Below, piece after piece: positions 8,708-22,084 of a DNA stretch of 22,196 bases (position 1 is the first letter of the stretch; every line of letters begins with the position of its first letter). This DNA is from a virus. The position numbers were made by a program, and so were the translations under genes. The stretch lies in the IMG/VR virus record IMGVR_UViG_3300026549_000035, positions 160,918 through 183,113 of that record. One strand, written 5' to 3'. A model generated the notes under the pieces. It saw only the letters and a program-made list of their open reading frames with translations. It was not told the DNA's origin and made no database searches.

Positions 8708-8741
8708 AATATTAGAAGATTTTTTAAGGAGGTGAAACTTA

Positions 8742-9338
8742 ATGAGTGTATTAGCTGGAATTATGATAGGAATTGGCTGTATGTTGTATTTATAGATTGG
8801 CGGAATCCCAGGAGCTTGTTTATTTTCAGTTGGATTAATGTCAGTTTGTTTATTCAATATGAAATTATTTACGGGTCAGGCGGGAAAACTTGCAACATTA
8901 GAAATAAAACCCTTAAGCCTTTTAAAAATTTGGATTGGAAATTTTATAGGAATTTTTCTTGTTGCGCTAGTAGCCTTGGTGCATCCAAATTATGAAACTA
9001 TGGCGGAAGCCGCAAGAAATATAATGGCTTCTCGAGAAGCTGCAGGCTTTTTTTATTCTTTCGTATTAGGAATCCCTTGCGGTTTATTAATGTATTGTGC
9101 AGTCACCGCAAGAGGTCCGATGCGATTATTTTATATTATGATTTGCGTAGCAGCTTTTATTTTAGGCGGATTTTACCATTGTATTGCTGATTTATTTTAT
9201 ACTTGGTTAGGTGCTGGAAATATGCAATAGTTATGTAATGTTTTATTCGTAACTCTTGGAAATCTTGTAGGATGCAATCTTATCCCTTTAATAAAAATTA
9301 TTCCAAATAAAATTAAGAGGCTCAAAAAGAAAAAATGA
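8742..9338 (+). CDS. FNT-family-like membrane channel homolog, about 198 codons, with two in-frame TAG codons at 8793..8795 and 9228..9230
   Basis: ATG 8742 sits 7 nt after a perfect AAGGAGGTG SD. The frame is open to TGA 9336..9338 except for the two TAG codons. FNT-like segments lie on both sides of each TAG: FSVGLMSVCLFNMKLFTG (compare FocA FSLGLILCVVCGADLFTS), CVAAFILGGFYHCIADLF (compare GFEHSIANMF), and after the second TAG NVLFVTLGNLVGC (compare the FocA C-terminal VTLGNIIGG). Confidence 0.6.
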
Positions 9339-11921: not shown

Positions 11922-12272
11922 TTATCCTTTTTTTTGACAAAGTTCAAAATATGTATCTCCAATTTTTTGTGGTGTTGATTTATACTGACAGTTATGTTCA
12001 TAATCAAGGCAAATATAAGCATTTTTATTATTAGAGCCTTTTATAATACCACATTCCATACAAGTAGACTTTTTATCCTAGTTATCCCAAGAAGAAGTCC
12101 ATTCTTCAACAAGTTCTTTTAAAAGTTCTTGTTCTAATTCAGTTAAACAATAAAAGGGAACCTGTGCCCAAACTTCCTTGTTTTTATTTTCAGATACATT
12201 TTTTTCTATACTATAACAATCATAATTATCATTAAATAAGAGTCTATATTGACCTAAAGTAATAACTTTCAT
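11922..12272 (-). CDS. hypothetical protein. The 64-aa ORF ends at TAG 12080..12078, and the frame stays open for 51 more Cys-containing codons to TAA 11924..11922.
   Basis: The extension reads IKKSTCMECGIIKGSNNKNAYICLDYEHNCQYKSTPQKIGDTYFELCQKKG, which is protein-like and fills the whole intergenic gap up to the next gene's RBS. An alternative is a separate mini-ORF from ATG 12059 with a poor RBS. Confidence 0.45.
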
Positions 12273-12586: not shown

Positions 12587-12865
12587 TTATAAATTTTTTT
12601 TTACTTTTTTATATGAATCATAAATATCTAAATCTATTTCTGTTGAGTAATTACTTTTTATTGTTTTATAAATATGTTTTATATAAAGTAAAGTATCTTC
12701 AATATCAATAAAATAAATTTTTGCGGATCCAGACATACTGCCACGTATTTTTACTTGATAACCGTATTTTTTTTCTTTTAACTTAACATATTCTAATCCA
12801 TATCCTTCAACAGCGCCGAAGCCATATGAAAAATGATCTCTTATTAGTCCTAATGTGATTATCAT
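12587..12865 (-). CDS. hypothetical protein, 92 aa
   Basis: AAAGGAAT SD. Ends in TAA. Confidence 0.55.
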   Translation of the reverse strand: MIITLGLIRDHFSYGFGAVEGYGLEYVKLKEKKYGYQVKIRGSMSGSAKIYFIDIEDTLLYIKHIYKTIKSNYSTEIDLDIYDSYKKVKKNL

Positions 12866-12894
12866 ATTATTATTCCTTTTTTGAAAGTTATTTA

Positions 12895-13251
12895 TTATTT
12901 AAAAAATTCAATTTTTTCATATTCTTTATATTTTTTATCAAAATTTTCCTTTACTTCTGGAAAATCGTTAGATATAATAATAAGTATATCGCTTGGAAAA
13001 AAATTAATAATAATATCTTGGTTATTTTTTATAAGGTAGCCGCAATGCACGCCTCGTAGATTTATAATATCTTCATATTCAGTTGGAGAAACTGTAAATT
13101 TAATTTCTCCTATTTCTTTTTCATTACGTTGTAAATTGATAATTAAATTAATTCTTATTCTTTCCCAAAGAGCTTGTTTTAATTCATCATGATATTTTTT
13201 ATTTTCAAGATTTTTATCCCAAAGGATTAGCGGTTTTGGTCTATAATTCAT
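12895..13251 (-). CDS. hypothetical protein, 118 aa; first gene of a long minus-strand operon
   Basis: Class I promoter copy 6 lies immediately upstream. Ends in TAA. Confidence 0.55.
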   Translation of the reverse strand: MNYRPKPLILWDKNLENKKYHDELKQALWERIRINLIINLQRNEKEIGEIKFTVSPTEYEDIINLRGVHCGYLIKNNQDIIINFFPSDILIIISNDFPEVKENFDKKYKEYEKIEFFK

Positions 13252-13288
13252 TATTTTATTTTTCCTTTTTATTATTTTTTCTATATAT

Positions 13289-13317
13289 ATTATAATATAT
13301 TTTTATTAAAAAATCAA
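13289..13317 (-). promoter_or_regulatory. Class I promoter, copy 6; divergent from the plus-strand promoter of the RHH operon
   Basis: Minus strand reads TTGATT (13317..13312), a 17-nt spacer, then TATAAT (13294..13289). Confidence 0.7.
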
Positions 13318-13345
13318 TTGAGAATTTTTTTGTTAAAAAATTTTT

Positions 13346-13373
13346 TTACATTGTAGGACAAAGTTATATAAAT
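13346..13373 (+). promoter_or_regulatory. Candidate plus-strand promoter (TTTACA-16-TATAAA) for the RHH-led operon
   Basis: tttacattgtaggacaaagttatataaa. It contains the half-operator-like TTACATTGTAG. Confidence 0.35.
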
Positions 13374-13418
13374 TATTACAAAGTATTTTTATATATACAT
13401 GAAAGGAAGTGAAAGAAA

Positions 13419-13550
13419 TTGACTACTATTTCAGTTAGAATTGATGACACAGAAAAAAAGAAATTAGAAGAATTTGCCAGAAAAGAAGATTTAACTATGT
13501 CACAAATTATTCGTAAAGCTTTAAAAGAGTATTTAAAAAATAATACATAA
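13419..13550 (+). CDS. ribbon-helix-helix (CopG/Arc/MetJ-like) DNA-binding protein, 43 aa, TTG start
   Basis: The translation TTISVRIDDTEKKKLEEFARKEDLTMSQIIRKALKEYLKNNT has an N-terminal beta-strand followed by two helices. An AAAGGAAG SD is 9 nt before the TTG. It is absent from the ORF track because it is short and uses a TTG start. Confidence 0.55.
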   Translation: MTTISVRIDDTEKKKLEEFARKEDLTMSQIIRKALKEYLKNNT

Positions 13551-13567
13551 GGAGGCTCATAAGCAAA

Positions 13568-13747
13568 ATGCCAATTAACAAAATAATTTATTCAAAAAGA
13601 GTAATGGAGTCTTTAGTTGCTATGGGTAATATACCTCTTAAATCTATGCCTAATCCTTATAAGCCAGAGTTTTAGTGTTGGATTTTTGAAGTTAATGAAA
13701 AATTTTAGAAAGATATAGATAAAATATTAGGTGATAAATATGGTTGA
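13568..13747 (+). CDS. small protein. ATG 13568 sits after a TAAGGAGG SD, 35 codons run to TAG 13673..13675, the frame continues through a second TAG at 13706..13708 to TGA 13745..13747, and it overlaps the next start.
   Basis: MPINKIIYSKRVMESLVAMGNIPLKSMPNPYKPEF then TAG, CWIFEVNEKF then TAG, KDIDKILGDKYG then stop. The read-through text is protein-like and ends in an ATGnnTGA-style overlap with the downstream gene. Confidence 0.4.
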
Positions 13748-14111
13748 GCGCACTTTTATATTTTATCCTGATTGGCTTAATTTTATTGAACGTATTAGTA
13801 ATGAAAAAGATAAATTAGATTTATATGATATTATTGCTTCTTATGGGTGTCATGGAGAATATTCAAATAAAAATCCTATGATGACTGCTGTTTTTGAATC
13901 TTTAATTAAACCTAAAATAGATATTGCGCAAGGTCGTTATGAAGAAAAAATTACTATGGGAAAGAATTATGGACGTAAAAAAATAGTAGATGATAATATG
14001 GTCAAGTAGTTGGCGCAAGAAGGCATGCGCGCAAAAGATATTGCTGAGAAATTAAACGTGTCGGTTGATACGGTTTATCATAGTGATGGATGGAAAAATA
14101 GAAATTTGTAA
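13740..14111 (+). CDS. two-domain DNA-binding protein. An 89-aa N-terminal domain ends at an in-frame TAG (14007..14009) and is followed by a 33-codon sigma70-region-4-like HTH. It is possibly an ArpU/RinA-like regulator or an initiator-like protein.
   Basis: ATG 13740 sits after a TAGGTGAT SD. The frame after the TAG is contiguous and reads LAQEGMRAKDIAEKLNVSVDTVYHSDGWKNRNL, a classic HTH. The internal ATG 14025 is only 1 nt after its AAGAAGG and cannot initiate well. Confidence 0.5.
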
Positions 14112-14262
14112 AAATAGATGTGATTTTTTACAAAAAATATTTGTAAAAATAGATATTGTTTTTACAAAAAATATTTGTAAAAATACAAATTTTATTTGTA
14201 AAAAACAAATTTTTATTTGTAATTTGTAATTTGCTCTATTATCTATTACAAATTACAAATTT
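14101..14262. repeat. Array of TTGTAA/TTACAA half-sites in direct and inverted arrangement, including two 36-bp tandem units TTTGTAAAAATAGAT...TTTTTACAAAAAATA
   Basis: tttgtaaaaatagat appears twice. ttttacaaaaaatatttgtaaaaata appears twice. Also present are tttgtaaaaaacaaat, tttgtaatttgtaattt and attacaaattacaaat. Confidence 0.8.
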
Positions 14263-14281
14263 TCCACTGACGTGGAAAATA
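14262..14281. promoter_or_regulatory. Palindrome TTTTCCAC-N4-GTGGAAAA, a candidate operator
   Basis: ttttccactgacgtggaaaa has 8-bp inverted arms. Confidence 0.4.
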
Positions 14282-14285
14282 TGTT

Positions 14286-14341
14286 AAAGAGTATTTTAAA
14301 AATCCTAGTCGCTTCGCTCCTAGGCTTTTATAAAATACTCT
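14286..14341. repeat. Long imperfect inverted repeat (stem-loop with about 20 bp of stem) followed by a GGGGCTTTTT tract. It may act as a terminator or processing site upstream of 14372..14617.
   Basis: AGAGTATTTTAAAAATCCTAG, loop tcgcttcgctc, CTAGGCTTTTATAAAATACTCT. Confidence 0.5.
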
Positions 14342-14371
14342 AGGGGCTTTTTATGAAAGGAGAAATGAAAA

Positions 14372-14617
14372 ATGAATGATAATATTTTTTCAACAGAAAA
14401 AAATCGTGAAATAAGTGAGCTTCAAGAAAGAATAAAAAGAGATTGGATTTTAAGAGAAACAGACGAAGAAGATGAATATGAGTTAGAAATAGATGAAGAA
14501 GATTTAGAAAATGTTATAGAAGATATTCTTGAAAGACGAGAGAGAAAAAATAGAGAACTCTTAAAAGAGATAGTAGATTTATTAGAAGATATAAAGATAT
14601 ATCTGAGAAGATTATAG
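14372..14617 (+). CDS. highly acidic coiled-coil-like protein, 81 aa. It ends at TAG and is followed 2 codons later by TAA.
   Basis: SD AAAGGAGAAATG. The translation is Glu/Asp-rich: ...EEDEYELEIDEEDLENVIEDILERRERKNRELL. Confidence 0.5.
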   Translation: MNDNIFSTEKNREISELQERIKRDWILRETDEEDEYELEIDEEDLENVIEDILERRERKNRELLKEIVDLLEDIKIYLRRL

Positions 14618-14640
14618 TTTAAATAAAAGGAGGAATTTTT

Positions 14641-14886
14641 ATGGCAGGAATCCCATCAAAAATTGAACCTACTATGAAAGGGAAAAAGTTACCTTTAATA
14701 TAGAGAGTAAAATATCATGAATTAGATAGTTTTCTTAATAGAAAAGATATTGTTAGAGGAGAACTATTTATAGATGAGAACACTGGGGATTTATATGTAG
14801 CAGAAAAAGGCGATGTAGAAACTTATTGGTTAAGATTAGGTAGAACAGATTTAGAAAAAGAAGAACTGGAACAAAACAAAAATCCA
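14641..14886 (+). CDS. hypothetical protein, 81 codons, with an in-frame TAG at 14701..14703. The 61 codons downstream have no ATG, GTG or TTG.
   Basis: AAGGAGG SD 8 nt before ATG 14641. The translation is MAGIPSKIEPTMKGKKLPLI then TAG, then RVKYHELDSFLNRKDIVRGELFIDENTGDLYVAEKGDVETYWLRLGRTDLEKEELEQNKNPFLN then TGA. Confidence 0.5.
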
Positions 14887-15013
14887 TTTTTAAATTGAAA
14901 TTAAAATAAAAATGTGATATTATATAAATAATAAAAAAGGGCTTTTATAAAAATGAATTGAAAATTCATTTTTATAAAAGAAAAATGAAATGAAAAATGA
15001 GGAAGGTAGAAAT

Positions 15014-15412
15014 ATGAATTATTATTATGAGTCAGGTCATATAGGAAATTATAAAGGACATCAAGTTTGGATAATTGATTATAGTAATTTTTATAGAGAA
15101 GATACTATTGATAGTGATGATATTTGGGCAGTAAGAACAGGACCAAATCAAAGTATTAAATTAGTATTAAAAGGATATGAATTTGGTCAAATGAGTCATA
15201 GTGGAGAAGTGTCTTTATATAGAAAAGAGAAGCCTTTTAACTTTTACCATAGAAGAGAAGAAAAGGAAGTTAAAAAAACTCCGGTAGTAGTAGAAGTAAA
15301 AGAGGAGCCTTTAGAAATTAATTATAGTGATTATACTCAACCAGTAGATATGTTTTTTAAGAATCTAAAAGAGTGGTGGAAAGATTTAGATAAGGAGCTT
15401 AAATCAATATAA
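15014..15412 (+). CDS. hypothetical protein, 132 aa. The second ATG, with a GAGGAAGG SD, is preferred over the track start at 14990.
   Basis: MNYYYESGHIGNYKGHQVW... Ends in TAA. Confidence 0.5.
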   Translation: MNYYYESGHIGNYKGHQVWIIDYSNFYREDTIDSDDIWAVRTGPNQSIKLVLKGYEFGQMSHSGEVSLYRKEKPFNFYHRREEKEVKKTPVVVEVKEEPLEINYSDYTQPVDMFFKNLKEWWKDLDKELKSI

Positions 15413-15459
15413 GATAGGTATTCTACCTATTTTATATAGGGTACAGGTTTTATATAGAA

Positions 15460-15575
15460 ATAATTAAAAACTGTGAAGATTATAGTTTTATAGTAAAAAT
15501 TAAGAAATTATATTGAAAATTGTAAAAATTGCGGTTTTATATTAAAAATTGCAATTCTATGTAGAAAATTGTGGT
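15460..15575. repeat. Iteron-like AAAATTG(Y) repeats phased at about 10 and 20 bp
   Basis: aaaattg copies begin at 15516, 15525, 15545 and 15565, with variant copies upstream. Confidence 0.6.
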
Positions 15576-15579
15576 TTAG

Positions 15580-15620
15580 TGGTGGCCCCGTTCGGTGTTA
15601 ATTGTAACACCATTTTATCG
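15580..15620 (+). other. CCCCGTTCGGTG motif (inverted copy of the island motif) plus the GGTGTTA-ATTG-TAACACC hairpin with a T-tract
   Basis: ggtggccccgttcggtgttaattgtaacaccattttat. Confidence 0.5.
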
Positions 15621-15640
15621 TAATCGTCATCGTTATCATA

Positions 15641-15689
15641 ATAAATAAAAAACCCTTGAGCAACTCGCTCAAGGGTTTTTCTTATTTTC
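15641..15689. terminator. Bidirectional rho-independent terminator
   Basis: AAAAAACCCTTGAGC, loop AACTC, GCTCAAGGGTTTTTCTTATTTT. Confidence 0.85.
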
Positions 15690-15696
15690 ACTTTTA

Positions 15697-16131
15697 TTAT
15701 CTAACCATTCGATTAAGGAAATCCTCAATAGGGTCGACTGCATGAACTGCACCAGCCTTTTGGCTCTTATTTTTCAATGCTTCGAGCTCCTGGCTTAGCT
15801 CAATATACTTAGTGAGAAAAGGAAGAGATTCATCGATAACTTTAACGATCTCTTCTGGATCAGCCTCTTCGATAGCATCAAGAATCTCATCATCAACCTC
15901 ATAAACTGCCAAAAGATCTTCAAATGCAAAGAGAACTGCTTCTACAGCCGCTATCTTCTGGGCAAAAAGATTATCCTGCTTTGCTTTTGCTTCAGCTTCT
16001 GCTTTTTTGGCAGCTTCCGCAGCCTTATGCTTCTCATTTGCTTCGTTCAAGCTCTTGGTAAGTGATGCAGCAATATCTTCCGCCGACTCACCATTCTGTA
16101 GACGCTCAAGAATCTCATTTGTATAATCCAT
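15697..16131 (-). CDS. acidic Ala/Glu/Lys-rich protein, 144 aa; paralog of 2660..3058
   Basis: GC-richer than its surroundings. Class I promoter copy 7 is immediately upstream and a strong terminator lies downstream. Ends in TAA. Confidence 0.65.
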   Translation of the reverse strand: MDYTNEILERLQNGESAEDIAASLTKSLNEANEKHKAAEAAKKAEAEAKAKQDNLFAQKIAAVEAVLFAFEDLLAVYEVDDEILDAIEEADPEEIVKVIDESLPFLTKYIELSQELEALKNKSQKAGAVHAVDPIEDFLNRMVR

Positions 16132-16166
16132 TTATAAAAACCTCTTTTCTTTTATTTTCTATATAT

Positions 16167-16195
16167 ATTATATCAAAAATTTTTATAAAAATCAA
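16167..16195 (-). promoter_or_regulatory. Class I promoter, copy 7
   Basis: Minus strand reads TTGATT (16195..16190), a 17-nt spacer, then TATAAT (16172..16167). Confidence 0.7.
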
Positions 16196-16199
16196 ATTT

Positions 16200-16705
16200 A
16201 GGCTCGTAAAGCCACGAAAATTTTTCTGTGGAAAGAAATTCATGAGAACTTCCTTTTGGATAGCTGGGCTGATAAAAATCAGCCTTTGTAAATACGCCAT
16301 AGCAAAGATGAGAACTATGCGTTTTTCCCCGAACGGACATCCGAACGGGAATGGACAGGAACGAAAGAGCTGCGGAAAATTTTTGGTTTTTTTTAATATT
16401 ATACCAAAAAATTTTTTGAAAGTCAAACAAGTAATTATAAAAACAAACACCGAGCGGGGCCGGCAAGTAACTTTCAAATGAGATAAAAGCCATATGGGGC
16501 AAACACCGAACGGGGGCCCGCCCGGGGGGGCAGAGTGGTAAAAAAAAATTTCCCATTTCGGGAAAATGAGATGCCATATGGGGGGCCGCACTTGCCCTCG
16601 AAAAATTTGCATATGGGGTTAGGTGCGGGAATTCGGGCGACGTCTATTGTCGTCGGCCCGATGATTTTATCGCTTTAAGCCACTAAAGTGCCCGGGCGCA
16701 AACCC
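16200..16705. other. GC-rich non-coding island with reiterated CACCGAACGGGG and CATATGGGG motifs and several hairpins. The overlapping track ORFs here are judged spurious.
   Basis: caccgagcgggg at 16448, caccgaacgggg at 16504, ccccgaacgg and ccgaacggg near 16326..16347. catatgggg appears three times near 16491, 16575 and 16610. A bulged hairpin GGGCGACG...CGTCGGCCC is also present. Confidence 0.6.
16538..16568 (-). terminator. Rho-independent terminator for the minus-strand class II unit arrays
   Basis: Minus strand reads ATTTTCCCGAAATGGGAAAT followed by TTTTTTTTT. Confidence 0.7.
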
Positions 16706-16707
16706 TA

Positions 16708-16926
16708 TTAATTAATAGGGGGCGCAATTTTAGTAATCATATTTTCATAAAGGCATATTAATCCTTGATCGAAATGAACCCAAGGAATCATGTCACCCTC
16801 ACGATTCAAGATATACCAACCGACAGTCTTTTTCTTCTCTCTCCAATCCCAAAATTCACACCAGTAGTGAGAGACAAAGCGAGGCCTAATTTTCGTATTC
16901 CACCAAAATCTGAAGTTTGTAAACAT
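16708..16926 (-). CDS. hypothetical Trp-rich small protein, 72 aa
   Basis: It has its own class II promoter. The stop TAA is embedded in the hairpin CCCTATTAATTAATAGGG. Confidence 0.5.
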   Translation of the reverse strand: MFTNFRFWWNTKIRPRFVSHYWCEFWDWREKKKTVGWYILNREGDMIPWVHFDQGLICLYENMITKIAPPIN

Positions 16927-16956
16927 CTTTATTATCTCCTTTTCTTTGATGTATTT

Positions 16957-16985
16957 ATTATAGCGTGAATAAATTAAAATGTCAA
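16957..16985 (-). promoter_or_regulatory. Class II promoter: TTGACA-17-TATAAT, no operator
   Basis: Minus strand reads TTGACA TTTTAATTTATTCACGC TATAAT, then the conserved leader AAATACATCAAAGAAAAGGAG. Confidence 0.7.
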
Positions 16986-16991
16986 GAGTTT

Positions 16992-17174
16992 TTAAAAATC
17001 TTCTTTTCTTTTTATGATTCGTTTATTATTTTTTGAATCAATAATAATAACATACTTATCACCTACACGAGCACGCCAATGGTGAGAAAAGAAGTAGTCT
17101 GCAATAGTTTCCTTGTTATTATCACAGACAGACCAAGTATGATCTGAAAATAAAAGAATTACTTTATCAATCAT
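16992..17174 (-). CDS. hypothetical small protein, 60 aa; weakly similar to the 16708..16926 product (SHHW / SHYW motif)
   Basis: Own class II promoter and operator. Ends in TAA. Confidence 0.45.
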   Translation of the reverse strand: MIDKVILLFSDHTWSVCDNNKETIADYFFSHHWRARVGDKYVIIIDSKNNKRIIKRKEDF

Positions 17175-17203
17175 TTTTATCTCTCCCTTTTTTTGATATA
17201 TTT

Positions 17204-17252
17204 ATTATAACATACTATAACTTAATTGTCAATAATTATTACAATTTTGTAA
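17204..17252 (-). promoter_or_regulatory. Class II promoter (TTGACA-17-TATAAT) with the upstream operator TTACAA-TT-TTGTAA (17239..17252)
   Basis: tgtcaa at 17227..17232, attata at 17204..17209 and ttacaattttgtaa at 17239..17252 on the plus strand. Confidence 0.7.
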
Positions 17253-17265
17253 CCAGCCCGGGTGC

Positions 17266-17292
17266 AGTTCTCTCACCAGTGGAGAGAGAACA
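17266..17292 (-). other. Stop-overlapping hairpin GTTCTCTC...GAGAGAAC at the end of 17273..17560
   Basis: gttctctcaccagtggagagagaac. Confidence 0.5.
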
Positions 17293-17560
17293 CATAGCTT
17301 ACCTTATGATTAAATTTAACTTGATATCCTAATGTTTCGTAATAATTACGAATAATAGTATTTCTTTCATCTGTGTCCAAATCATAAAAACGGTTTCTAT
17401 CTTGAAATCTTAGAAGGATACAAGTTTCGCCCCTACTTGCGGCTGTTTCTATTAACTTATCAAAACGATTAAACTCAGAAAAAAGATAGCTATTAGCAAT
17501 TTCTTTTCTCTTTGTTTGAGCTTCTGTGGCTATCTGTCTTGCTTCTTTTGCACTAATCAT
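17273..17560 (-). CDS. hypothetical protein, 95 aa
   Basis: AAAGGAG SD 9 nt upstream. In an operon 5 nt after 17566..17832. Ends in TGA. Confidence 0.55.
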   Translation of the reverse strand: MISAKEARQIATEAQTKRKEIANSYLFSEFNRFDKLIETAASRGETCILLRFQDRNRFYDLDTDERNTIIRNYYETLGYQVKFNHKVSYVFSLHW

Positions 17561-17565
17561 CTTAT

Positions 17566-17832
17566 TTACTCCTTTTCTAAACAGCGATTAATAAATCGAC
17601 TTATCTTATCTTCTGCAACAGAAACTTCTTTTAAAAGTGAAAATAAGAAATCATTAAAATTATCGTCATAATAAAGAGCGACAAAACTATTGATATCCCC
17701 AGTACCGTGAGTTTCTTCTGCGATAAAATCAGTAATAAGGTCAATCATGCGAGTTACTATCTGAACAGCTTGTAAATTTTTTTCATCAAGATTTAAAGAA
17801 ACCTTTATTACTTTTTCAGAGTCTATTGTCAT
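17566..17832 (-). CDS. hypothetical acidic protein, 88 aa
   Basis: Class II promoter and operator upstream. Ends in TAA. Confidence 0.55.
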   Translation of the reverse strand: MTIDSEKVIKVSLNLDEKNLQAVQIVTRMIDLITDFIAEETHGTGDINSFVALYYDDNFNDFLFSLLKEVSVAEDKISRFINRCLEKE

Positions 17833-17863
17833 TTTTTTTATCTCCTTTTCTTTTGATGTATTT

Positions 17864-17917
17864 ATTATAGCACATCAAGATAAAAAAGTCAATAGTTAAA
17901 ATATTACAATTTTGTAA
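17864..17917 (-). promoter_or_regulatory. Class II promoter (TTGACT-17-TATAAT) with the operator TTACAATTTTGTAA (17904..17917) and the GCCCGGGCG box (17921..17929)
   Basis: agtcaa at 17887..17892 and attata at 17864..17869. The conserved leader is AAATACATCAAAAGAAAAGGAGATAAAAAAAATG. Confidence 0.7.
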
Positions 17918-17942
17918 TCTGCCCGGGCGCAAACCCCTTTGA

Positions 17943-18294
17943 TTAATCATCTTCAAAGGGGCATTCGTCAAACCAAGGACAAGAAGAAGCGCAAGATTCA
18001 GCAGAATCATCACATGGAACATTTAACTTGAAATCATCGGGAAGTGGGAGAGGAGGAAATATTACTTGATCATTTATGATGTGCGCTCCTGACTCAAGAG
18101 CTTCTGCGATGTCAAACCCTTGGAGCCAATCAAGTAAGGCTTCTGCGCAACTTTTTTAAGCAGGTATCCTCATCAACCTTTTGACGGTATTTATCACAAG
18201 CTGTCCAATCGCCTACTTCATAGATAGGACAATCATTACAATAAACTGTTGCTTTGTCAATAAGTTTTTTAAGTTTATTATCATTTACAATCAT
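17943..18294 (-). CDS. Cys-rich protein, about 117 aa, interrupted by a +1 frameshift at an A6 run (minus-strand heptamer A_AAA_AAG, plus-strand T6 at 18152..18157)
   Basis: Frame 0 from ATG 18294 reads MIVNDNKLKKLIDKATVYCNDCPIYEVGDWTACDKYRQKVDEDTCLKK and then stops soon at TGA 18132. The +1 frame is open from just before the A-run to TAA 17945 and reads KSCAEALLDWLQGFDIAEALESGAH...NVPCDDSAESCASSCPWFDECPFEDD. Removing one A joins the two frames. Confidence 0.5.
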
Positions 18295-18332
18295 TTTTAT
18301 AACCTCTCTTCTTAACCTTTTGGAACAAGCTC

Positions 18333-18590
18333 TTAGTAATCAACACTAATGTAACACGCTTCACCACGAGTCATACCATTTTCAAGTAAAACTTCTGCAA
18401 CATAACGCTCAGGTTTATTTAATTCCTCAAAATCTTTTTCATCTTTAGGAATCCAAAAATAAATTGCGCCACTTTGTGGAGGGCAGTATGATTCGTTAAA
18501 TTCTCCTTCTACATCTTCACCATATTTTTTTTGAATAAGGGTAAAAACTTCACTGGAATCATACACTTTATACATTTTGAACTGAAACAT
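18333..18590 (-). CDS. hypothetical protein, 85 aa
   Basis: Class II promoter and operator upstream. Ends in TAA. Confidence 0.55.
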   Translation of the reverse strand: MFQFKMYKVYDSSEVFTLIQKKYGEDVEGEFNESYCPPQSGAIYFWIPKDEKDFEELNKPERYVAEVLLENGMTRGEACYISVDY

Positions 18591-18620
18591 TTTTTTATCT
18601 CCTTTTCTTTTGATGTATTA

Positions 18621-18669
18621 AGTATAACACAGTCAGAAGAAAAAGTCAATAGCTATTACAATTTTGTAA
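18621..18669 (-). promoter_or_regulatory. Class II promoter (TTGACT-17-TATACT) with the operator TTACAATTTTGTAA (18656..18669) and the GCGCCCGGGCGC box (18684..18695)
   Basis: agtcaa at 18644..18649 and agtata at 18621..18626. Confidence 0.65.
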
Positions 18670-18695
18670 CTTTTTTTTTATTGCGCCCGGGCGCT

Positions 18696-18800
18696 CGGAG
18701 GCGTTTACACTCGCTATCCGAGGCACTACTCAGGAACGTGGTAGGAGCACGTCACTCTTTTCATGTCCTACCCTCGAATAGCAACTGTAAACGCCCCCAG
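18696..18800. ncRNA. A ~105-nt GC-rich long imperfect hairpin (about 30 bp paired in three stem segments) inserted between a gene-end hairpin and a promoter box. It is a candidate structured RNA or protein-binding palindrome of unknown class.
   Basis: Outer stem GGCGTTTACA/TGTAAACGCC, middle stem GCTATCCGAGG/CCTCGAATAGC with one wobble pair, inner stem GGTAGGA/TCCTACC. A 17-nt asymmetric loop contains ACGTG. It fails a tRNA cloverleaf test. Confidence 0.35.
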
Positions 18801-18805
18801 GGGGG

Positions 18806-18828
18806 GTTGAGGGGTTAACCCTCAACCT
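18806..18828 (-). other. Perfect 9-bp hairpin GGTTGAGGG-GTTAA-CCCTCAACC overlapping the stop of 18815..19212
   Basis: ggttgaggggttaaccctcaacc. Confidence 0.6.
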
Positions 18829-19212
18829 CAGCAGGAGCTTCATAGACTCCCACAGGAGCGAAGTAGGTTCTGCGCTTTACGCTACCCTTAGACAGCTCAC
18901 CGGCCTGAATAGCCTGACGAAGCAAAGCAGAAACATGCTGATTGCTGTCGCCTTCAACCGCAGGACACTCTTTGAGCAAATCGCTAACGGTGTAACCGTT
19001 CGACCCCTCAACAAAGTGAGTATCGATATACTCTACCAGACGCTCACGAACAACAGCGTTCTCAGTCTGACGAGCGGTAGGTTTACGCTCTATGCCAGAC
19101 TTCTTGTCGAGCTGTTCAACCATCTTCTGGAGCTTCTCAGCTACCTCGGTAGGCAGGTCATAACTCTCCAAACATAAGCAAGAGCCTTACGGTTAGTCAT
19201 CTTATTAGTCAT
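18815..19212 (-). CDS. GC-rich (roughly 50% by eye) putative DNA-binding protein of uncertain fold. The RBS-supported start ATG 19212 is out of frame by 1 nt with the long ORF, so there is a frameshift or indel near 19166..19176.
   Basis: AAAGGA SD 9 nt before ATG 19212, which gives MTNKMTNRKALAYV. The long ORF from TTG 19171 has no SD and reads ESYDLPTEVAEKLQKMVEQLDKK... Inserting one T in the TTT run joins them as ...ALAYVLESYDL.... Codon composition is unlike its neighbours. Confidence 0.5.
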
Positions 19213-19290
19213 AGTATCAATCCTTTCAGCGTTGGTCGCCACCCAAATTTTTATTGTCAAGGGAGGTTTTCCTTCCCTTTGACTGTCTTT

Positions 19291-19345
19291 ATTATATCAC
19301 ATAGAGAGGAAAAAGTCAAGGGGGTTTTCAAATTTTTTTGAAAAT
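19291..19345 (-). promoter_or_regulatory. Class II-type promoter (TTGACT-17-TATAAT) with a different upstream palindrome, TTTTCAAA-N4-TTTGAAAA (19326..19345), and a structured leader
   Basis: agtcaa at 19314..19319 and attata at 19291..19296. The leader hairpin GTCAAAGGGAAGG-AAAA-CCTCCCTTGAC is at 19256..19286. Confidence 0.55.
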
Positions 19346-19533
19346 CTGTTTCGTTACCGTGTATCCACAAAAGAGAGAACCTCGTGGGAGGGACTTTTTA
19401 TCTCTCTCCCCTTGACTGTAATATTATTATAGCAGATTCAATTGGTTTTGTCTATTGGCAAAATGCACAAAGGATTTTCAACATTTTGTTTTATTTTGTG
19501 CATTTTGCCGGGGCACCCGGGCGCTGAGTGCTA

Positions 19534-19866
19534 TTACGAAATAAAGGCAATAGCACGACAGTCAGGCTTCCACTCAAAAAACTTTTCTAAGTGATATTTA
19601 TTATAGAATTTTAAAAATGCTTGTTCATCTTTTGGATTTAAAACATACTTATCTTTATTAAATTCTTTAATATCTTCACCATAGTCAAGGATAGTATACA
19701 CAACCCCAACAAAATGCTCTTCGTCTGCCCAATCATTAAGGCATTTTGCCCATTTGTTTTCCCAGCCTTCACGGTCATTAATATCCTCAATAATATCTTC
19801 AATTGCTTCAAAATCTTCTTTACTAATAATTATGCCGTAACCAATAGCAAAAGAAAAATCTATAGC
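19534..19866 (-). CDS. hypothetical protein, about 110 aa from ATG 19866
   Basis: An AAAGGAG SD lies 9 nt before ATG 19866, and the track start at 19878 abuts the SD. It is in an operon after 19897..20337. The stop is embedded in the hairpin GTGCTATT...AATAGCAC. Confidence 0.5.
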   Translation of the reverse strand, partial: AIDFSFAIGYGIIISKEDFEAIEDIIEDINDREGWENKWAKCLNDWADEEHFVGVVYTILDYGEDIKEFNKDKYVLNPKDEQAFLKFYNKYHLEKFFEWKPDCRAIAFIS

Positions 19867-19896
19867 CATTTTTTTCATCTCCTTTCTTTGTCCCCC

Positions 19897-20337
19897 TCAA
19901 GCCGCAAGAAGCGACTTGAGGGTTTCAATCATTTCATCAGCAGGACAAGCACGACCTGTCCATGCTTCAAGGTGTCGAACTTCATCATCAAACAGAATAT
20001 CCTCGCCAGAATTTACATCATTTTTTGTAAACCAGTAAGGAACAAAACGAATCTCATCAAAACGAACGCTTTTAAGGTGACGATTAAGCCACATTTTTTT
20101 TGCCTTGATTACTGCTTCATCATATTCTGCGGAGCTGTTCTTTGACAAAGCGGTAACAATGCAAATTTCAAAACCGTTGCGCTGAACTCTATTCATCAGC
20201 CGAGCCAGAAGCGAAAGATTTACAAGGGGTTTTGCTTCTGCGTAGGGGGTAGGGTCAGAATTGATTAACTTTTCAAGCCAATCATTAACCCCATAAAGGT
20301 CAGCAATAGTGCCGTCCATGTCAAACCAAATTCTCAT
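19897..20337 (-). CDS. HAD-superfamily 5'(3')-deoxyribonucleotidase (NT5C/YorS-like)
   Basis: The N-terminal HAD motif I WFDMDGTIADL (DxDGT) and the overall 146-aa size and pattern match phage and Bacillus 5'-nucleotidases. Ends in TGA. Confidence 0.6.
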   Translation of the reverse strand: MRIWFDMDGTIADLYGVNDWLEKLINSDPTPYAEAKPLVNLSLLARLMNRVQRNGFEICIVTALSKNSSAEYDEAVIKAKKMWLNRHLKSVRFDEIRFVPYWFTKNDVNSGEDILFDDEVRHLEAWTGRACPADEMIETLKSLLAA

Positions 20338-20360
20338 AGGGTATCAATCCTTTCTCTCTT

Positions 20361-20389
20361 TGATGTATTTATTATATCATACTCTAAAT
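20361..20389 (-). promoter_or_regulatory. Class II promoter (TTGACA-17-TATAAT), no TTACAA operator. The GCGCCCGGGCG box is at 20456..20466.
   Basis: tgtcaa at 20384..20389 and attata at 20361..20366. Conserved leader AAATACATCAAAGAGAGAAAGGA. Confidence 0.65.
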
Positions 20390-20469
20390 AAAATGTCAAT
20401 ACTTTTTCTATTATTATTATAACAAATTTTTTAATATTTTTCAAAGAAGTCTTTTTGCGCCCGGGCGTA

Positions 20470-20504
20470 AATTAAAAAGCGGAATGTAAAGGCATTCCGC
20501 TTTA
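20470..20504 (-). terminator. Rho-independent terminator for 20502..20705; 11-bp perfect stem
   Basis: AAAGCGGAATG, loop TAAAGG, CATTCCGCTTT, with TTTAATTT on the minus strand. Confidence 0.65.
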
Positions 20505-20705
20505 ACAATTATCTGAAAAACAACCCAAATAAGGATCATAGCCTACTTCATAATCACAATCATCTATTTCAGACTCATTGTTATAATAAGCTGCTTCATC
20601 ACATTCTAAGATAGGATTACTCTCAGGGTACATGGAGCAATTACCATACTTATAATAAGGACAAGTACAATCTGCTACAGGACACTCAAAAACTTTTTTA
20701 TTCAT
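20502..20705 (-). CDS. small Cys-rich protein, 67 aa from ATG 20705
   Basis: An AAAGG SD lies 9 nt upstream. The translation MNKKVFECPVADCTCPYYKYGNCSMYPESNPILECDE...CDYEVGYDPYLGCFSDNC has 9 Cys. Ends in TAA. Confidence 0.5.
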   Translation of the reverse strand: MNKKVFECPVADCTCPYYKYGNCSMYPESNPILECDEAAYYNNESEIDDCDYEVGYDPYLGCFSDNC

Positions 20706-20738
20706 TAGTATCAACCTTTCTTCTTTTATTGTGATTAT

Positions 20739-20803
20739 AGTATAGCATGAAAAAATTATTTTGTCAAGGATTTTTTGGTTACAATCTTGTAATCTGCCCG
20801 GGG
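20739..20803 (-). promoter_or_regulatory. Class II promoter (TTGACA-17-TATACT) with the operator TTACAA-TC-TTGTAA (20779..20792) and the GCCCGGGG box
   Basis: tgtcaa at 20762..20767 and ttacaatcttgtaa at 20779..20792. Confidence 0.65.
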
Positions 20804-20807
20804 CGAA

Positions 20808-20834
20808 GCCAGACCTCCCCCATTAAAAGGGGAG
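20808..20834 (-). other. Perfect 9-bp hairpin GACCTCCCC-ATTAAAA-GGGGAGGTC overlapping the stop of the HD gene
   Basis: gacctcccccattaaaaggggaggtc. Confidence 0.6.
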
Positions 20835-21433
20835 GTCGCTGTCGTCAAGGATAAAATCCTCGGGGTGAGCGTCAATCTCATACTCTGCGGTAAGAGTAGG
20901 AATATCCCAAAATGACCTTGAAGCAATATAATCAGACAAGTGAACAAGGCGGTCAACAGGGGTGAAAGGTCTATCTTCTTTCGGCTCAGTCCATTGACCC
21001 ATGTGTGACTTAATCGCCAGTAAAAGCACTTCGGGAGCTTCTTCATTGAAAAATTCCTGCCATGCTTCTTTAACAGCATTTGAAGCGTGCAAACCGTGTT
21101 GCTTGAAGCAATTTTTATCTTCTTCTAAACCGCCGTATTTATAAGTGTCGTGAAGAATACAAGCGACTTTTGCATAATCTTTGTATTCATCTCTCATATA
21201 CGCATAAGTATTCATGCGTAAAAGTTCTTCACATACCATCACAACGGCTCTTGTATGACGAATTAAACCGCCCTCGCCCTGAGCGAATACAGGGTGATAT
21301 TTACCAGAAGAAGAAGCCCCAGACTTTTTAAACCATTCCCCAACACGAGTGTCAAGAAAAAATCGAGTGAAGTCTTTCAAATCTTCGCTTTGGATAAGCT
21401 GGATTTCACGCTCAAAAAATTTACTTAACTGCA
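20823..21433 (-). CDS. HD-domain metal-dependent phosphohydrolase, about 203 aa from ATG 21433
   Basis: H..H (GKYHP...IRHTRAV), HD (ACILHDTYKYG), H (HGLHASN) and D (LVHLSDY) motifs. An AAAGGA SD is 10 nt before ATG 21433. The track start at 21533 would run through the promoter and operator, so it is rejected. Confidence 0.6.
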
Positions 21434-21459
21434 TTTGTATCAAATCCTTTCTCTCTTTG

Positions 21460-21531
21460 ATTACAATGTAATTATAGCACACTCTGTCGGAAATGTCAAT
21501 AGTTATTACAAAATTGTAACCGCGCCCGGGC
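21460..21531 (-). promoter_or_regulatory. Class II promoter (TTGACA-17-TATAAT) flanked by two operators, TTACAAAATTGTAA (21505..21518, upstream) and TTACAATGTAA (21460..21470, over the -10/+1), plus the CGCGCCCGGGC box
   Basis: tgtcaa at 21493..21498 and attata at 21470..21475. Confidence 0.65.
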
Positions 21532-21546
21532 AAAAAATGGGAAGTT

Positions 21547-21795
21547 TTAATCTAAAACTTCCCATGGATAACAGCGCAAAGCGCCTTCAAGAGCTTCTTC
21601 AAGATTCTCACGAGTTAGTTTACCTTTGTAAAGAAGTCGTTCGGGGTGAAAATTATCATAAATGAAATATTCATCATCATTTTTGGTAAATCCAACCCCG
21701 CAAAGGGTATTTAATGCGTATTCTAATCCAGTTTGAAAAGTTTCACTTACTGAACAAATGGCTCCATCAAAATCTATAAAAATAAATACAACCAT
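21547..21795 (-). CDS. hypothetical protein, 82 aa; its start overlaps the upstream stop (TAATG)
   Basis: Translational coupling with 21795..22070. Ends in TAA. Confidence 0.5.
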   Translation of the reverse strand: MVVFIFIDFDGAICSVSETFQTGLEYALNTLCGVGFTKNDDEYFIYDNFHPERLLYKGKLTRENLEEALEGALRCYPWEVLD

Positions 21796-22070: not shown

Positions 22071-22084
22071 TGTTTTATTTCCTT

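What the first reader, a model, noticed from the sequence alone, without database searches (positions are those of the whole stretch)
14101..14262. Dense TTGTAA/TTACAA half-site array directly downstream of the HTH gene; the same half-site forms the class II operators
About 160 bp contain at least 12 TTGTAA/TTACAA half-sites arranged as two 36-bp tandem units, each internally inverted (TTTGTAAAAA...TTTTTACAAA), plus TTTGTAATTTGTAATTTG and ATTACAAATTACAAAT blocks. The class II operators 2.8 to 7.3 kb away are TTACAA-NN-TTGTAA. One regulator could therefore bind both, and the array could be a high-affinity sink or nucleation site, a partition/centromere-like site, or an iteron origin next to its initiator, as in Firmicutes phages where the ori lies in or after the replisome-organiser gene.
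Basis: partly seen in the sequence, partly recalled or inferred. Interest (0 to 1): 0.7.

Follow-up and report, generated by a model that had tools for sequence, protein, structure and literature searches.

The report
Iteron array beside phage HTH gene
A 160-bp block packed with TTGTAA repeats directly after a small DNA-binding-protein gene is real and is conserved in every relative examined in this group of uncultivated phages; it is most likely that protein's own binding-site array, probably a replication-origin-type element, not mainly a companion of the distant promoter operators.

Summary
Positions 14101-14262 carry 10 exact TTGTAA/TTACAA cores; simulated sequences gave at most 5-7. They form two 29-30-bp inverted units, two degenerate 21-bp units and a perfect 16-nt palindrome around a 14-nt AT core. 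Two hairpins follow.

The upstream gene (13740-14111, read through an in-frame TAG; the phage uses TAG as a sense codon, probably Gln) encodes DUF6291 plus a resolvase-type arm and HTH. All 12 relatives with enough downstream sequence (down to 37% identity) have an array starting at the stop codon. Number and layout differ. The core changes by lineage (TTGTAA, TTGTAG, TTGCAA), and TTGCA cores occur only where the recognition helix has Asp instead of Tyr. So the array is very probably this protein's cognate iteron set.

Longer DUF6291 proteins are sometimes fused to DnaD/DnaB_2 or Phg_2220_C replication-organiser domains. That makes an origin-type function the best guess (about 0.45), but it is unproven: GC skew does not switch here, no replication genes are nearby, and this protein has no loader domain.

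The shared-regulator idea is weak. TTACAA-NN-TTGTAA sits upstream of the -35 in only two lineages, and that geometry never occurs in the arrays.

The parts
13419..13550 (+). 43-aa ribbon-helix-helix protein (CopG/RelB-like; Pfam RHH_1, DUF6290). First gene of the small + strand operon. Present in some relatives (L002, L004, L053, L056), absent in L001 and L005, so it is not the array's obligatory partner.
   Evidence: contexts
13568..13747 (+). 59-aa protein with no family match and two in-frame TAG codons (13673-13675, 13706-13708). Its end overlaps the start of the HTH gene (ATGGTTGA). A gene of 60-66 aa occupies this position in nearly all relatives.
13740..14111 (+). 123-aa DUF6291 + resolvase-type DNA-binding protein, with an in-frame TAG at 14007-14009. 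Layout: helical N-domain (residues 5-81), GRKK arm, then HTH_7 (residues 78-113). Its last codons and stop (AAT TTG TAA) form the first repeat.
   Evidence: DUF6291 6e-11; HTH_7 3e-8, spanning the TAG; gamma-delta/Tn3 resolvase DNA-binding domain, E about 2e-6; model pLDDT 87; recognition helix YHS..WK..R invariant
14105..14134 (.). Iteron unit 1: TTTGTAAAAA-N10-TTTTTACAAA, a 30-bp inverted repeat.
   Evidence: (I18)
14140..14168 (.). Iteron unit 2: TTTGTAAAAA-N9-TTTTTACAAA, a 29-bp inverted repeat, 35 bp after unit 1.
14174..14214 (.). Two 21-bp units (TTTGTAAAAAtACAAAtttt and TTTGTAAAAAACAAAttttt), each with an intact forward core and a degenerate reverse core.
   Evidence: (period 21, 2.3-2.4 copies)
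14215..14260 (.). Terminal palindrome: doubled 7-bp repeats ATTTGTAATTTGTAAT / ATTACAAATTACAAAT (16/16 complementary) around the AT-rich core TTGCTCTATTATCT (14231-14244). The core TTTGCTCTATTA is kept almost unchanged in relatives down to 52% protein identity.
   Evidence: (I7)
14259..14280 (.). Hairpin 2 (TTTTCCAC-TGAC-GTGGAAAA). The stem is kept in relatives with different sequence, through compensatory changes.
14288..14341 (+). Hairpin 3: a long A/U-flanked stem with a GC inner stem followed by CTTTTAT. It resembles an intrinsic (possibly two-way) terminator that would end the RHH-59aa-HTH operon, so the array would be transcribed as its 3' end.
   Evidence: I9; three hairpins, z = -6.3; compensatory differences between lineages, judged by eye
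17239..21519 (-). Five TTACAA-NN-TTGTAA palindromes (17239-52, 17904-17, 18656-69, 20779-92, 21506-19). Each lies between a GCCCGGGC motif and the -35 of a TTGACA-N17-TGnTATAAT promoter on the - strand. They are probably a separate, lineage-specific promoter-upstream element. They are listed because the finding links them to the array.

Best explanation
The array is the cognate binding-site cluster (iterons) of the protein encoded directly upstream (13740-14111). Protein and array together form a conserved cis/trans module that most likely acts as a replication-origin-type element of this group of TAG-recoded, uncultivated phages (related contigs reach 140-195 kb).

Proposed mechanism:
1. The N-terminal helical DUF6291 domain, which has a predicted 32-residue helix, dimerises the protein (inferred).
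2. The C-terminal part is homologous to the gamma-delta/Tn3 resolvase DNA-binding domain. By analogy, its HTH reads the TTGTA core in the major groove, and the conserved GRKK arm lies in the minor groove of the flanking A-tract. This would explain the roughly 10-bp repeat A(A/T)TTTGTAAAAA (inferred).
3. Dimers occupy inverted repeats about 26-30 bp long and coat 160-400 bp of 14-28% GC DNA (inferred).
4. At the distal end, doubled repeats clamp a conserved 14-nt AT-rich core that can melt or extrude, giving entry to replication proteins (inferred).
5. The module lies inside the initiator's own transcription unit, upstream of the apparent terminator hairpins, as in lambda O/ori-lambda.

What is shown: the statistics, the conservation, the gene-array linkage, the change of repeat core with the recognition helix, and the domain homologies. 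What is inferred: binding itself, dimer geometry and origin function. I put about 0.85 on 'cognate binding array of this protein' and about 0.45 on 'origin-type function'; the confidence given here is for the full statement including origin function.
For: 1. Non-random array: 10 cores in 160 bp against a simulated maximum of 5-7.
2. Linkage: all 12 relatives with enough downstream sequence, at 37-84% protein identity (L001, L002, L003, L005, L007, L012, L014, L052, L053, L054, L056, L058, and also L179), have an array of 9-17 cores beginning at or just after the stop codon. Copy number, order and length (160-400 bp) differ, and downstream genes differ.
3. The cores are almost confined to the array in those loci, for example 14 of 16 in L005 and 9 of 9 in L007.
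4. Specificity changes with the protein. TTGTAG repeats go with helix STNAIYHN (L012: 14 TTGTAG, 1 TTGTAA). TTGCA cores appear only in the three lineages with Asp in place of Tyr113 (L054: 13 TTGCAA; L058: 4; L178: 2 TTGCAG in 58 nt) and were zero in the nine Tyr/Glu-helix lineages counted.
5. The C-terminus matches the resolvase DNA-binding domain including the arm. The match spans the TAG codon.
6. DUF6291 is the N-domain of replication-organiser-type proteins in other phages. Of 47 longer family members, 3 carry DnaB_2, 1 carries Phg_2220_C, and about 4 hit PHROGs named DnaD-like helicase loader, replication initiation O-like or replisome organizer.
7. In Riemerella phage PJA1 a DUF6291+Phg_2220_C gene follows Erf and a YqaJ exonuclease.
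8. A DUF6291-DnaB_2 gene (L180) has 11-12-nt tandem repeats in its linker-coding region, as in origins that lie inside the initiator gene (weak).
9. Anatomy typical of origins: very AT-rich iterons, a palindrome around an AT core, and three stable hairpins (z = -6.3). In L053/L014 the non-coding region reaches about 1.3 kb and holds three different repeat families.
Against: - GC skew in the window simply follows gene strand. It is negative on both sides of the + strand island, so there is no replichore-type switch at the array.
- No helicase, primase, polymerase or loader gene was recognised among the window genes scanned against Pfam/PHROGs.
- This 123-aa protein lacks the DnaD/DnaB_2/Phg_2220_C part. 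Most DUF6291 proteins have only an HTH.
- The gene and its 59-aa neighbour contain in-frame TAG. In recoded phages that is over-represented in structural and lysis genes (PMC10879173, citing Borges et al.), so the full-length protein may not be made at the very start of infection.
- The DnaA-box-like TTTTCCAC pair in hairpin 2 is not conserved in relatives.
- The link between helix residue and repeat core rests on few independent lineages and is imperfect: L052 has YHN but mostly TTGTAA.
- No experiment exists for any family member; no paper mentions DUF6291.
Confidence: 0.45

Rival explanations
1. Regulatory array. The DUF6291-HTH protein is a transcription factor, for example a shut-off factor for early promoters in this sublineage through TTACAA-NN-TTGTAA. 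The array next to its gene would then be a titration sink, an autoregulatory or roadblock site, or a nucleation site for spreading.
For: The 6-bp core is shared with five palindromes placed just upstream of the -35 of strong sigma-A-type early promoters. In-frame TAG would delay the full-length protein until after the code switch, which would suit an early-to-late switch factor (PMC10879173). Flexible arm-linked HTH domains of the resolvase type tolerate variable half-site spacing (established knowledge of res sites; homology).
Against: The operators are absent from the equivalent promoters of L001, L003, L005, L017 and L056, which keep the array. Operator geometry (divergent, 2 bp apart) is never used in arrays. 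The array does not overlap a promoter: promoter-like sites are at chance level (19 found, 19.5 expected). Downstream genes are not conserved. An array at the 3' end of the gene is an unusual place for autoregulation.
Confidence: 0.2
2. Packaging recognition site (pac-like). The small HTH protein acts as a terminase small subunit or recognition factor, and DNA wraps around an oligomer that contacts many repeats.
For: Weak HTH-only matches to terminase small-subunit families (PF10668 at 0.037; phrog_309, 509, 1889 and 2538 at 0.004-0.06). TerS-like proteins L019/L020 share the arm-HTH motif. Pac sites often lie in or next to the small-subunit gene and are built of short repeats (established knowledge of SPP1 and P1). 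TAG-containing genes tend to be late genes.
Against: No large terminase, portal or other structural gene is adjacent in the window or in any relative. The similarity is limited to the generic HTH. The N-domain family is tied to replication proteins, not to terminases. Ends of related contigs do not coincide with the array.
Confidence: 0.08
3. Centromere-like or genome-pairing site. The protein (or the RHH protein) coats the array to segregate, anchor or pair phage genomes (handcuffing), as ParR/parC, omega, TubR/tubC or P1 incA do.
For: It is a dense array of short repeats in direct and inverted orientation, including 7-bp doublets that resemble omega/ParR heptad arrays. An RHH gene heads the operon. 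The position after the gene resembles P1 incA and F incC (established knowledge).
Against: No ParA, ParM or TubZ-type NTPase gene is adjacent in the window or in relatives. The RHH gene is missing in L001 and L005, which keep the array. No relative was found in 185,579 bacterial and archaeal species genomes, so there is no evidence of a plasmid or prophage state.
Confidence: 0.07
4. The array is bound by something other than the adjacent HTH protein (the 59-aa protein, the RHH protein or a host factor), or it acts purely through DNA structure such as curvature, cruciform formation or termination.
For: Binding has not been tested. The 59-aa gene is as tightly linked to the array as the HTH gene. 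The repeat resembles AT-rich host sites. Stable hairpins follow the array.
Against: TTGCA cores appear only in lineages with Asp in the HTH recognition helix, and TTGTAG dominates the array only in L012, whose helix is STNAIYHN. A host factor would not predict lineage-specific repeats. The RHH gene is dispensable.
Confidence: 0.1

Closest known systems
Iteron origins in or beside the initiator gene of phages and satellites: lambda O/ori-lambda, SPP1 G38P/oriL, and SaPI Rep/ori (iterons immediately 3' of rep, flanking an AT-rich stretch)
   Same: A cluster of short repeated binding sites physically coupled to the gene of the protein presumed to bind them. The DNA is AT-rich, inverted repeats are present, and the cluster lies inside the initiator's transcription unit. 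In some relatives the array is in two parts with a 50-70-nt non-repeat spacer (L002, L005, L052), as in the SaPI ori. The N-domain family (DUF6291) occurs in DnaD-like and Phg_2220_C organiser proteins.
   Different: The protein has only 123 aa and has no helicase, helicase-loader or DnaD-type domain. DNA reading is by a resolvase-type arm and HTH. No replication genes are nearby, there is no GC-skew signal, and origin activity is untested.
res sites of Tn3/gamma-delta resolvase
   Same: The DNA-binding domain is homologous (arm plus HTH_7, E about 2e-6). The sites are inverted half-sites spanning about 26-30 bp overall (19-20 bp in a smaller class), arranged in tandem at variable spacing. The half-site is a TGT-containing core plus an A/T minor-groove segment.
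   Different: There is no serine-recombinase catalytic domain. There are 4-8 or more units rather than three subsites. No crossover site was identified. The N-terminal domain is unrelated (DUF6291).
Control arrays placed after rep genes in iteron plasmids (P1 incA, F incC)
   Same: The iteron array lies directly after the gene of its binding protein. A titration or handcuffing role is conceivable.
   Different: Those elements belong to low-copy plasmids with a separate origin array upstream of rep. Here only one array is seen, the element appears to be a lytic phage, and the protein is not a RepA/RepE-type initiator.
Heptad or iteron centromeres (omega of pSM19035, ParR/parC of R1, TubR/tubC)
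   Same: Short repeats in mixed orientation, including 7-bp doublets, would be coated by a small DNA-binding dimer.
   Different: There is no partner NTPase. The likely binder is an HTH_7 protein rather than an RHH or TubR-type protein. There is no plasmid lifestyle.

Membership tests
Iteron-type replication origin with adjacent initiator | Three or more repeated protein-binding sites clustered in non-coding, AT-rich DNA | tested here: met
   10 exact cores plus 2 degenerate ones in 160 bp at 13.6% GC. The array is conserved in all relatives examined.
Iteron-type replication origin with adjacent initiator | The repeats are the cognate sites of the protein encoded next to them | tested here: inconclusive
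   Linkage is strict, and the repeat core changes with the recognition helix (TTGCA only with Asp; TTGTAG with STNAIYHN). Binding itself cannot be tested with these tools.
Iteron-type replication origin with adjacent initiator | The initiator carries, or recruits through a known domain, a helicase or helicase loader (DnaD/DnaB_2, Phg_2220_C, lambda-O C-terminus, Rep helicase) | tested here: not met
   Only DUF6291 and HTH_7 were found in the 123-aa protein. Such domains are present in a minority of other DUF6291 proteins.
Iteron-type replication origin with adjacent initiator | A DNA-unwinding element, or host DnaA/IHF sites, next to the iterons | tested here: inconclusive
   A 14-nt AT-rich core lies between inverted doublets and is conserved. 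The DnaA-box-like TTTTCCAC pair occurs only in this window and is not conserved.
Iteron-type replication origin with adjacent initiator | Replication starts there (marker frequency, skew switch, autonomous replication) | tested here: inconclusive
   No skew switch appears within the 22-kb window; skew tracks gene strand. Whole-genome skew and read depth could not be obtained.
Serine-recombinase res site | The binding protein has a resolvase catalytic domain | tested here: not met
   Pfam and PDB searches match only the C-terminal arm and HTH.
Serine-recombinase res site | Inverted half-sites bound by an arm-plus-HTH_7 domain at variable spacing | tested here: met
   Homology is shown. The spacing classes are convergent pairs 14-16 and 6-8 bp apart.
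Partition centromere (ParABS, ParMRC, TubZRC) | An adjacent ParA, ParM or TubZ NTPase gene | tested here: not met
   No such gene was found among the window genes scanned or in 12 related loci.
Partition centromere (ParABS, ParMRC, TubZRC) | The element is maintained as a plasmid or prophage | tested here: not met
   No relative of the protein was found in 185,579 species genomes.
pac/cos site with terminase small subunit | A small-subunit gene adjacent to the large terminase and packaging genes | tested here: not met
   Neighbouring genes are small, variable and unannotated. Matches to TerS families cover the HTH only, with E of 0.004 or worse.
Promoter operator of a transcription factor | Sites overlap or abut a promoter that they control | tested here: not met
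   This applies to the array: promoter-like sites in 12800-15800 are at chance level (19 found, 19.5 expected), and downstream genes are not conserved. The feature is met by the five distant palindromes, which abut the -35.

The most novel reading that the evidence does not exclude
DUF6291-HTH_7 and its array may form a previously undescribed minimal module. A resolvase-type DNA-binding domain without its catalytic part would assemble a res-like multi-dimer nucleoprotein structure on a fast-evolving, lineage-specific iteron array. In this lineage the DNA-binding form could be gated by the genetic-code switch. The TAG at codon 90 lies ahead of the HTH helices, so standard decoding yields an HTH-less 89-aa product (it keeps the GRKK arm) and only TAG-to-Gln suppression yields the binder. 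Array occupancy, and in this sublineage occupancy of the early-promoter palindromes, would then couple replication firing or early-gene shut-off to the code change.
Probability: 0.12. Interest if true: 0.8.

Novelty: new variant of a known kind. Interest (0 to 1): 0.5.

Why it matters
- It gives the first concrete, testable functional hypothesis for Pfam DUF6291. A profile search found 1,410 relatives among cluster representatives, and no paper mentions the family.
- It marks a candidate origin or key cis-element in a group of uncultivated, TAG-recoded phages (related contigs reach 140-195 kb) for which no replication signal is known.
- The lineage-specific repeat cores (TTGTAA, TTGTAG, TTGCAA), paired with single changes in the recognition helix, offer a compact natural system for studying how protein-DNA specificity shifts.
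- The array is also a practical marker for anchoring and comparing genomes of this group.

Tried and rejected
- DNA searches of the region and of the whole window against INPHARED phages found nothing.
- An exact search of IMG/VR for the conserved core TTGTARTTTGCTCTATTA gave 31 loci. About 23 of them were a chance identity inside an unrelated conserved coding gene of another phage group. An apparent enrichment at contig ends was therefore discarded.
- The gapped palindrome search TTTGTAAAA-N8-12-TTTTACAAA was too unspecific: more than 120 single chance hits, and only the known relative had several.
- Rfam found no family for the hairpins or the nearby GC-rich stretch. No tRNA was found.
- Literature searches for DUF6291 found nothing, and DUF6290 appears only in toxin-antitoxin or plasmid lists.
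- I considered the RHH protein as the array binder and rejected it, because the gene is absent from L001 and L005.
- I considered hairpin 2 as a pair of DnaA boxes and rejected it, because the sequence is not conserved.
- I tested a simple Ser-to-Asn rule for TTGTAA versus TTGTAG. It failed: L052 has Asn but mostly TTGTAA.
- GC skew was uninformative because it follows gene orientation.
Full report
**1. The observation**

Positions 14101-14262 contain ten exact TTGTAA/TTACAA cores. The whole window has 46 against 24.7 +/- 4.8 expected. The surplus is accounted for by these ten plus the ten in five distant palindromes.

Simulated sequences never reached ten cores in 160 bp. The maximum was 5 with a whole-window Markov model and 7 with the region's own 13.6%-GC dinucleotide model.

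The layout is as follows:
- Two units TTTGTAAAAA-N9/10-TTTTTACAAA at 14105-14134 and 14140-14168, with a 34-35-bp period.
- Two 21-bp units whose reverse core is degenerate, at 14174-14214.
- A perfect 16-nt inverted repeat of doubled 7-bp repeats (14215-14230 and 14245-14260) around the AT-rich core TTGCTCTATTATCT.

Two further hairpins follow, at 14259-14280 and 14288-14341. The three stem-loops together fold with z = -6.3. The last one looks like an intrinsic terminator: a GC inner stem followed by CTTTTAT.

**2. The neighbouring gene and the genetic code**

The + strand island 13419-15412 lies between two long blocks of - strand genes. It encodes:
- a 43-aa RHH protein (RHH_1, DUF6290);
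- a 59-aa protein with no family match;
- a 123-aa protein with DUF6291 (E = 6e-11) and HTH_7 (E = 3e-8).

The 59-aa gene has two in-frame TAG codons. The HTH gene has one, at 14007-14009, and the next-but-one gene (14641-14898) has one. The + strand transporter-like gene at 8736-9338 has two.

Several results indicate that TAG is a sense codon here, probably Gln:
- The HTH_7 match spans the TAG.
- Relatives have sense codons at that position; L001 has TCC.
- A TAG in the RHH gene of L002 aligns with CAA (Gln) in the window.
- The protein database holds full-length 123-aa versions with Q at these positions.
- The three apparent 'TAG stops' in the window all continue in frame to a TAA.

The stop codon of the HTH gene (AAT TTG TAA) is itself part of the first repeat.

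**3. Relatives**

Protein searches found 68 homologues, all from metagenomes. Some lie on contigs of 140-195 kb. No relative was found in INPHARED at the DNA level, and none in 185,579 species genomes.

I read the DNA after the gene in 13 relatives at 37-84% protein identity: L001, L002, L003, L005, L007, L012, L014, L052, L053, L054, L056, L058 and L179. In each, an array of 9-17 cores starts at or just after the stop codon. One further locus, L178, ends only 58 nt after the gene.

Copy number, order, spacing and total length (160-400 bp) differ greatly. Several arrays are in two parts with a 50-70-nt non-repeat spacer. The genes downstream are not conserved.

What stays constant is a block: a 60-aa gene, then the DUF6291-HTH gene, the array, a palindrome around an AT core, and the hairpins. 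The core TTTGCTCTATTA is nearly invariant down to 52% protein identity. Hairpin 2 keeps its stem through compensatory changes.

In the related loci the cores are almost confined to the array, for example 14 of 16 in L005 and 9 of 9 in L007.

**4. Who binds it**

The consensus repeat in the main lineage is A(A/T)TTTGTAAAAA. The core differs by lineage:

| Lineage | Repeat cores in the array | Recognition helix |
|---|---|---|
| Most lineages | TTGTAA | ..(V/I)YH(S/T).. |
| L012 group | 14 TTGTAG, 1 TTGTAA | STNAIYHN |
| L052 | 11 TTGTAA, 5 TTGTAG | SVDAVYHN |
| L054 | 13 TTGCAA | SKSSIDHS |
| L058 | 10 TTGTAA, 4 TTGCAA | NKSSIDHN |
| L178 (58 nt only) | 2 TTGCAG | SKSTIDHS |

TTGCA cores occur only in the three lineages where Tyr113 of the recognition helix is Asp. 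They were zero in the nine Tyr/Glu-helix lineages counted. This is the pattern expected for a protein and its cognate sites evolving together. It argues against a host factor. The number of independent events is small, and a simple Ser/Asn rule for A versus G at the last core position fails in L052.

The C-terminal 55 residues match the DNA-binding domain of gamma-delta and Tn3 resolvase, including the arm (E about 2e-6). The invariant G78-R79-K-K corresponds to the resolvase/Hin GR(K/P)R minor-groove arm; this correspondence is from my own knowledge of those structures. It would explain the A-tract attached to each core.

Neighbour spacing across 11 arrays:
- Convergent pairs are mostly 14-16 bp apart (27 of 44), with a second class at 6-8 bp.
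- Divergent pairs are 6-7 bp apart, or 4 bp in the L012 group.

These are inverted half-sites spanning about 26-30 bp overall (19-20 bp in the smaller class), in tandem at variable spacing. That geometry is reminiscent of res subsites. No catalytic domain is present.

**5. What it is for**

DUF6291 has no literature. A profile of the N-domain alone found 1,410 relatives. Most are 120-130-aa proteins with a DUF6291-HTH layout. Among 47 longer ones:
- 3 carry DnaB_2 (the DnaD/DnaB replication-initiation domain);
- 1 carries Phg_2220_C;
- 4 carry DUF7833;
- about 4 match PHROGs named DnaD-like helicase loader, replication initiation O-like, replisome organizer or primosomal protein.

In Riemerella phage PJA1 a DUF6291+Phg_2220_C gene follows Erf and a YqaJ exonuclease, the usual place of a replication-organiser gene. 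A DUF6291-DnaB_2 gene (L180) carries 11-12-nt tandem repeats in its linker-coding region. That resembles origins inside initiator genes, but it could merely reflect low-complexity coding sequence.

Taken with the anatomy (AT-rich iterons, a palindrome around an AT core, hairpins, a position inside the gene's transcription unit, and up to 1.3 kb of non-coding DNA with three repeat families in L053/L014), an origin-type function is the best-supported reading.

Evidence against it:
- GC skew only mirrors gene strand, with no switch at the array.
- No replication gene was recognised among the window genes scanned.
- This protein lacks any loader domain.
- Its TAG codons suggest it is not made in full at the very start of infection. 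Recoded stops are over-represented in structural and lysis genes (PMC10879173).

I therefore give about 0.85 to 'cognate iteron array of the DUF6291-HTH protein' and about 0.45 to 'origin-type function'.

**6. The link to the 'class II operators'**

The five TTACAA-NN-TTGTAA palindromes are real. Each sits in the same cassette on the - strand: terminator hairpin, GCCCGGGC, palindrome, 7-14 nt, TTGAC(A/T), a 17-nt spacer ending in TGn, TATAAT-like hexamer, ribosome-binding site, ATG. They lie upstream of the -35 of strong sigma-A-type promoters, in roughly the position of an UP element.

Five of the eight such promoters in the window have the palindrome. L002 has one exact and one degenerate copy. 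The equivalent promoters of L001, L003, L005, L017 and L056 have plain A/T tracts instead (for example AAATTTTTTCAAAAA), although those phages keep the array and the same recognition helix.

The operator geometry (divergent cores 2 bp apart) is never found in arrays. Its half-sites lack the A-tract. The five cassettes also share extended flanking similarity and may be duplicates of one another, so they may not be independent events.

The array is thus older than the operators and independent of them. A shared 6-mer is unlikely to be pure chance, so later recruitment of the protein to early promoters in this sublineage remains possible (rival, 0.2).

**7. Other rivals**

- Packaging site: only generic HTH similarity to small terminase subunits, and no terminase or portal gene nearby (0.08).
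- Centromere or pairing site: no NTPase partner, the RHH gene is dispensable, and there is no plasmid or prophage state (0.07).
- Another binder, or a purely structural role (0.1).

**8. Novelty**

Iteron clusters coupled to an initiator gene are a known kind. New here are:
- the binder, DUF6291 plus a resolvase-type DNA-binding domain with no loader or catalytic part;
- the res-like inverted-unit geometry;
- the lineage-specific switches of the repeat core;
- the setting in an uncultivated, TAG-recoded phage group.

I class it as a new variant of a known kind, of moderate interest.

Noticed in passing
window 13673-75, 13706-08, 14007-09, 14701-03, and two in 8736-9338 (+ strand genes); apparent TAG 'stops' of 1778-2404(-), 12078-12272(-) and 14372-14617(+): In-frame TAG codons sit in otherwise conserved genes, and all three apparent TAG stops continue in frame to a TAA. 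The phage appears to use TAG as a sense codon, probably Gln (code 15). TAG-containing genes cluster on the + strand islands. The - strand genes driven by sigma-A-type promoters mostly avoid TAG.
   Followed up: partly
window 16400-21530, - strand (for example 17232, 17892, 18649, 19319, 20399, 20767, 21499): Promoter cassettes recur: terminator hairpin, GCCCGGGC, an upstream A/T element or the TTACAAnnTTGTAA palindrome, then TTGACA-N17-TGnTATAAT, each driving one or two small genes. The GCCCGGGC motif is conserved in L001, L003 and L005. Its role is unknown.
   Followed up: partly
window about 16100-16700, - strand; also L001 about 9100-9250, L003 about 6550-6690, L005 about 6600-6720: A GC-rich stretch that does not look coding. 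It starts after a GCCCGGGC motif and has its own TTGACT-N17-TATAAT promoter (16426). Conserved segments such as CCATATGCAAAATTTTCG...CACACGAGCGGCATATGCCGC recur in relatives. This is a candidate structured non-coding RNA. There was no Rfam or tRNA hit.
   Followed up: partly
window 15440-15580 (convergent intergenic region 15413-15696): A second repeat cluster: four or five copies of (G/A)AAAATTG(T/C)RR spaced about 10 and 20 bp apart, preceded by TTATAGTTTTATAGTAAAA. That sequence resembles the roughly 12-copy GTTTATA(A/G)TAAAATT array in L053 (1690-1900). A two-way terminator lies at 15647-15681.
   Followed up: no
L053 838-2200 and L014 3366-3950: The non-coding region after the HTH gene reaches about 1.3 kb and holds three different repeat families in order: TTTTGGG(T/C)AA repeats, the TTGTAA array with its hairpins, a G-rich stretch, then GTTTATAATAAAATT repeats.
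   Followed up: no
window 22083-22182: A run of about 100 T (poly-A on the - strand) lies directly upstream of the ribosome-binding site of the - strand gene 21795-22070. It could be a real homopolymer or an assembly artefact.
   Followed up: no
window 13345-13385; L002 5600-5640: The promoter-like TTTACA-N16-TATAAA of the + strand operon contains a conserved TGTAGGACAAAGTTATATAA segment. This may be an operator for the RHH protein.
   Followed up: no
L052 883-1614; L001 about 5500-5790: GIY-YIG-type homing-endonuclease-like genes are inserted beside the module in some relatives: after the array in L052 (Pfam GIY-YIG on record) and, judged by eye only, before the 59-aa gene in L001.
   Followed up: no
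window 4963-5505, 7711-8274, 19897-20337, 20823-21533 (all - strand); 8736-9338 (+): Auxiliary genes near the module: NUDIX hydrolase, isochorismatase/nicotinamidase-like, 5'-nucleotidase (all Pfam hits), plus an HD-domain-like protein and a formate/nitrite-transporter-like membrane protein containing two TAG codons (both judged by eye; a Form_Nir_trans gene is on record in relative L056).
   Followed up: partly
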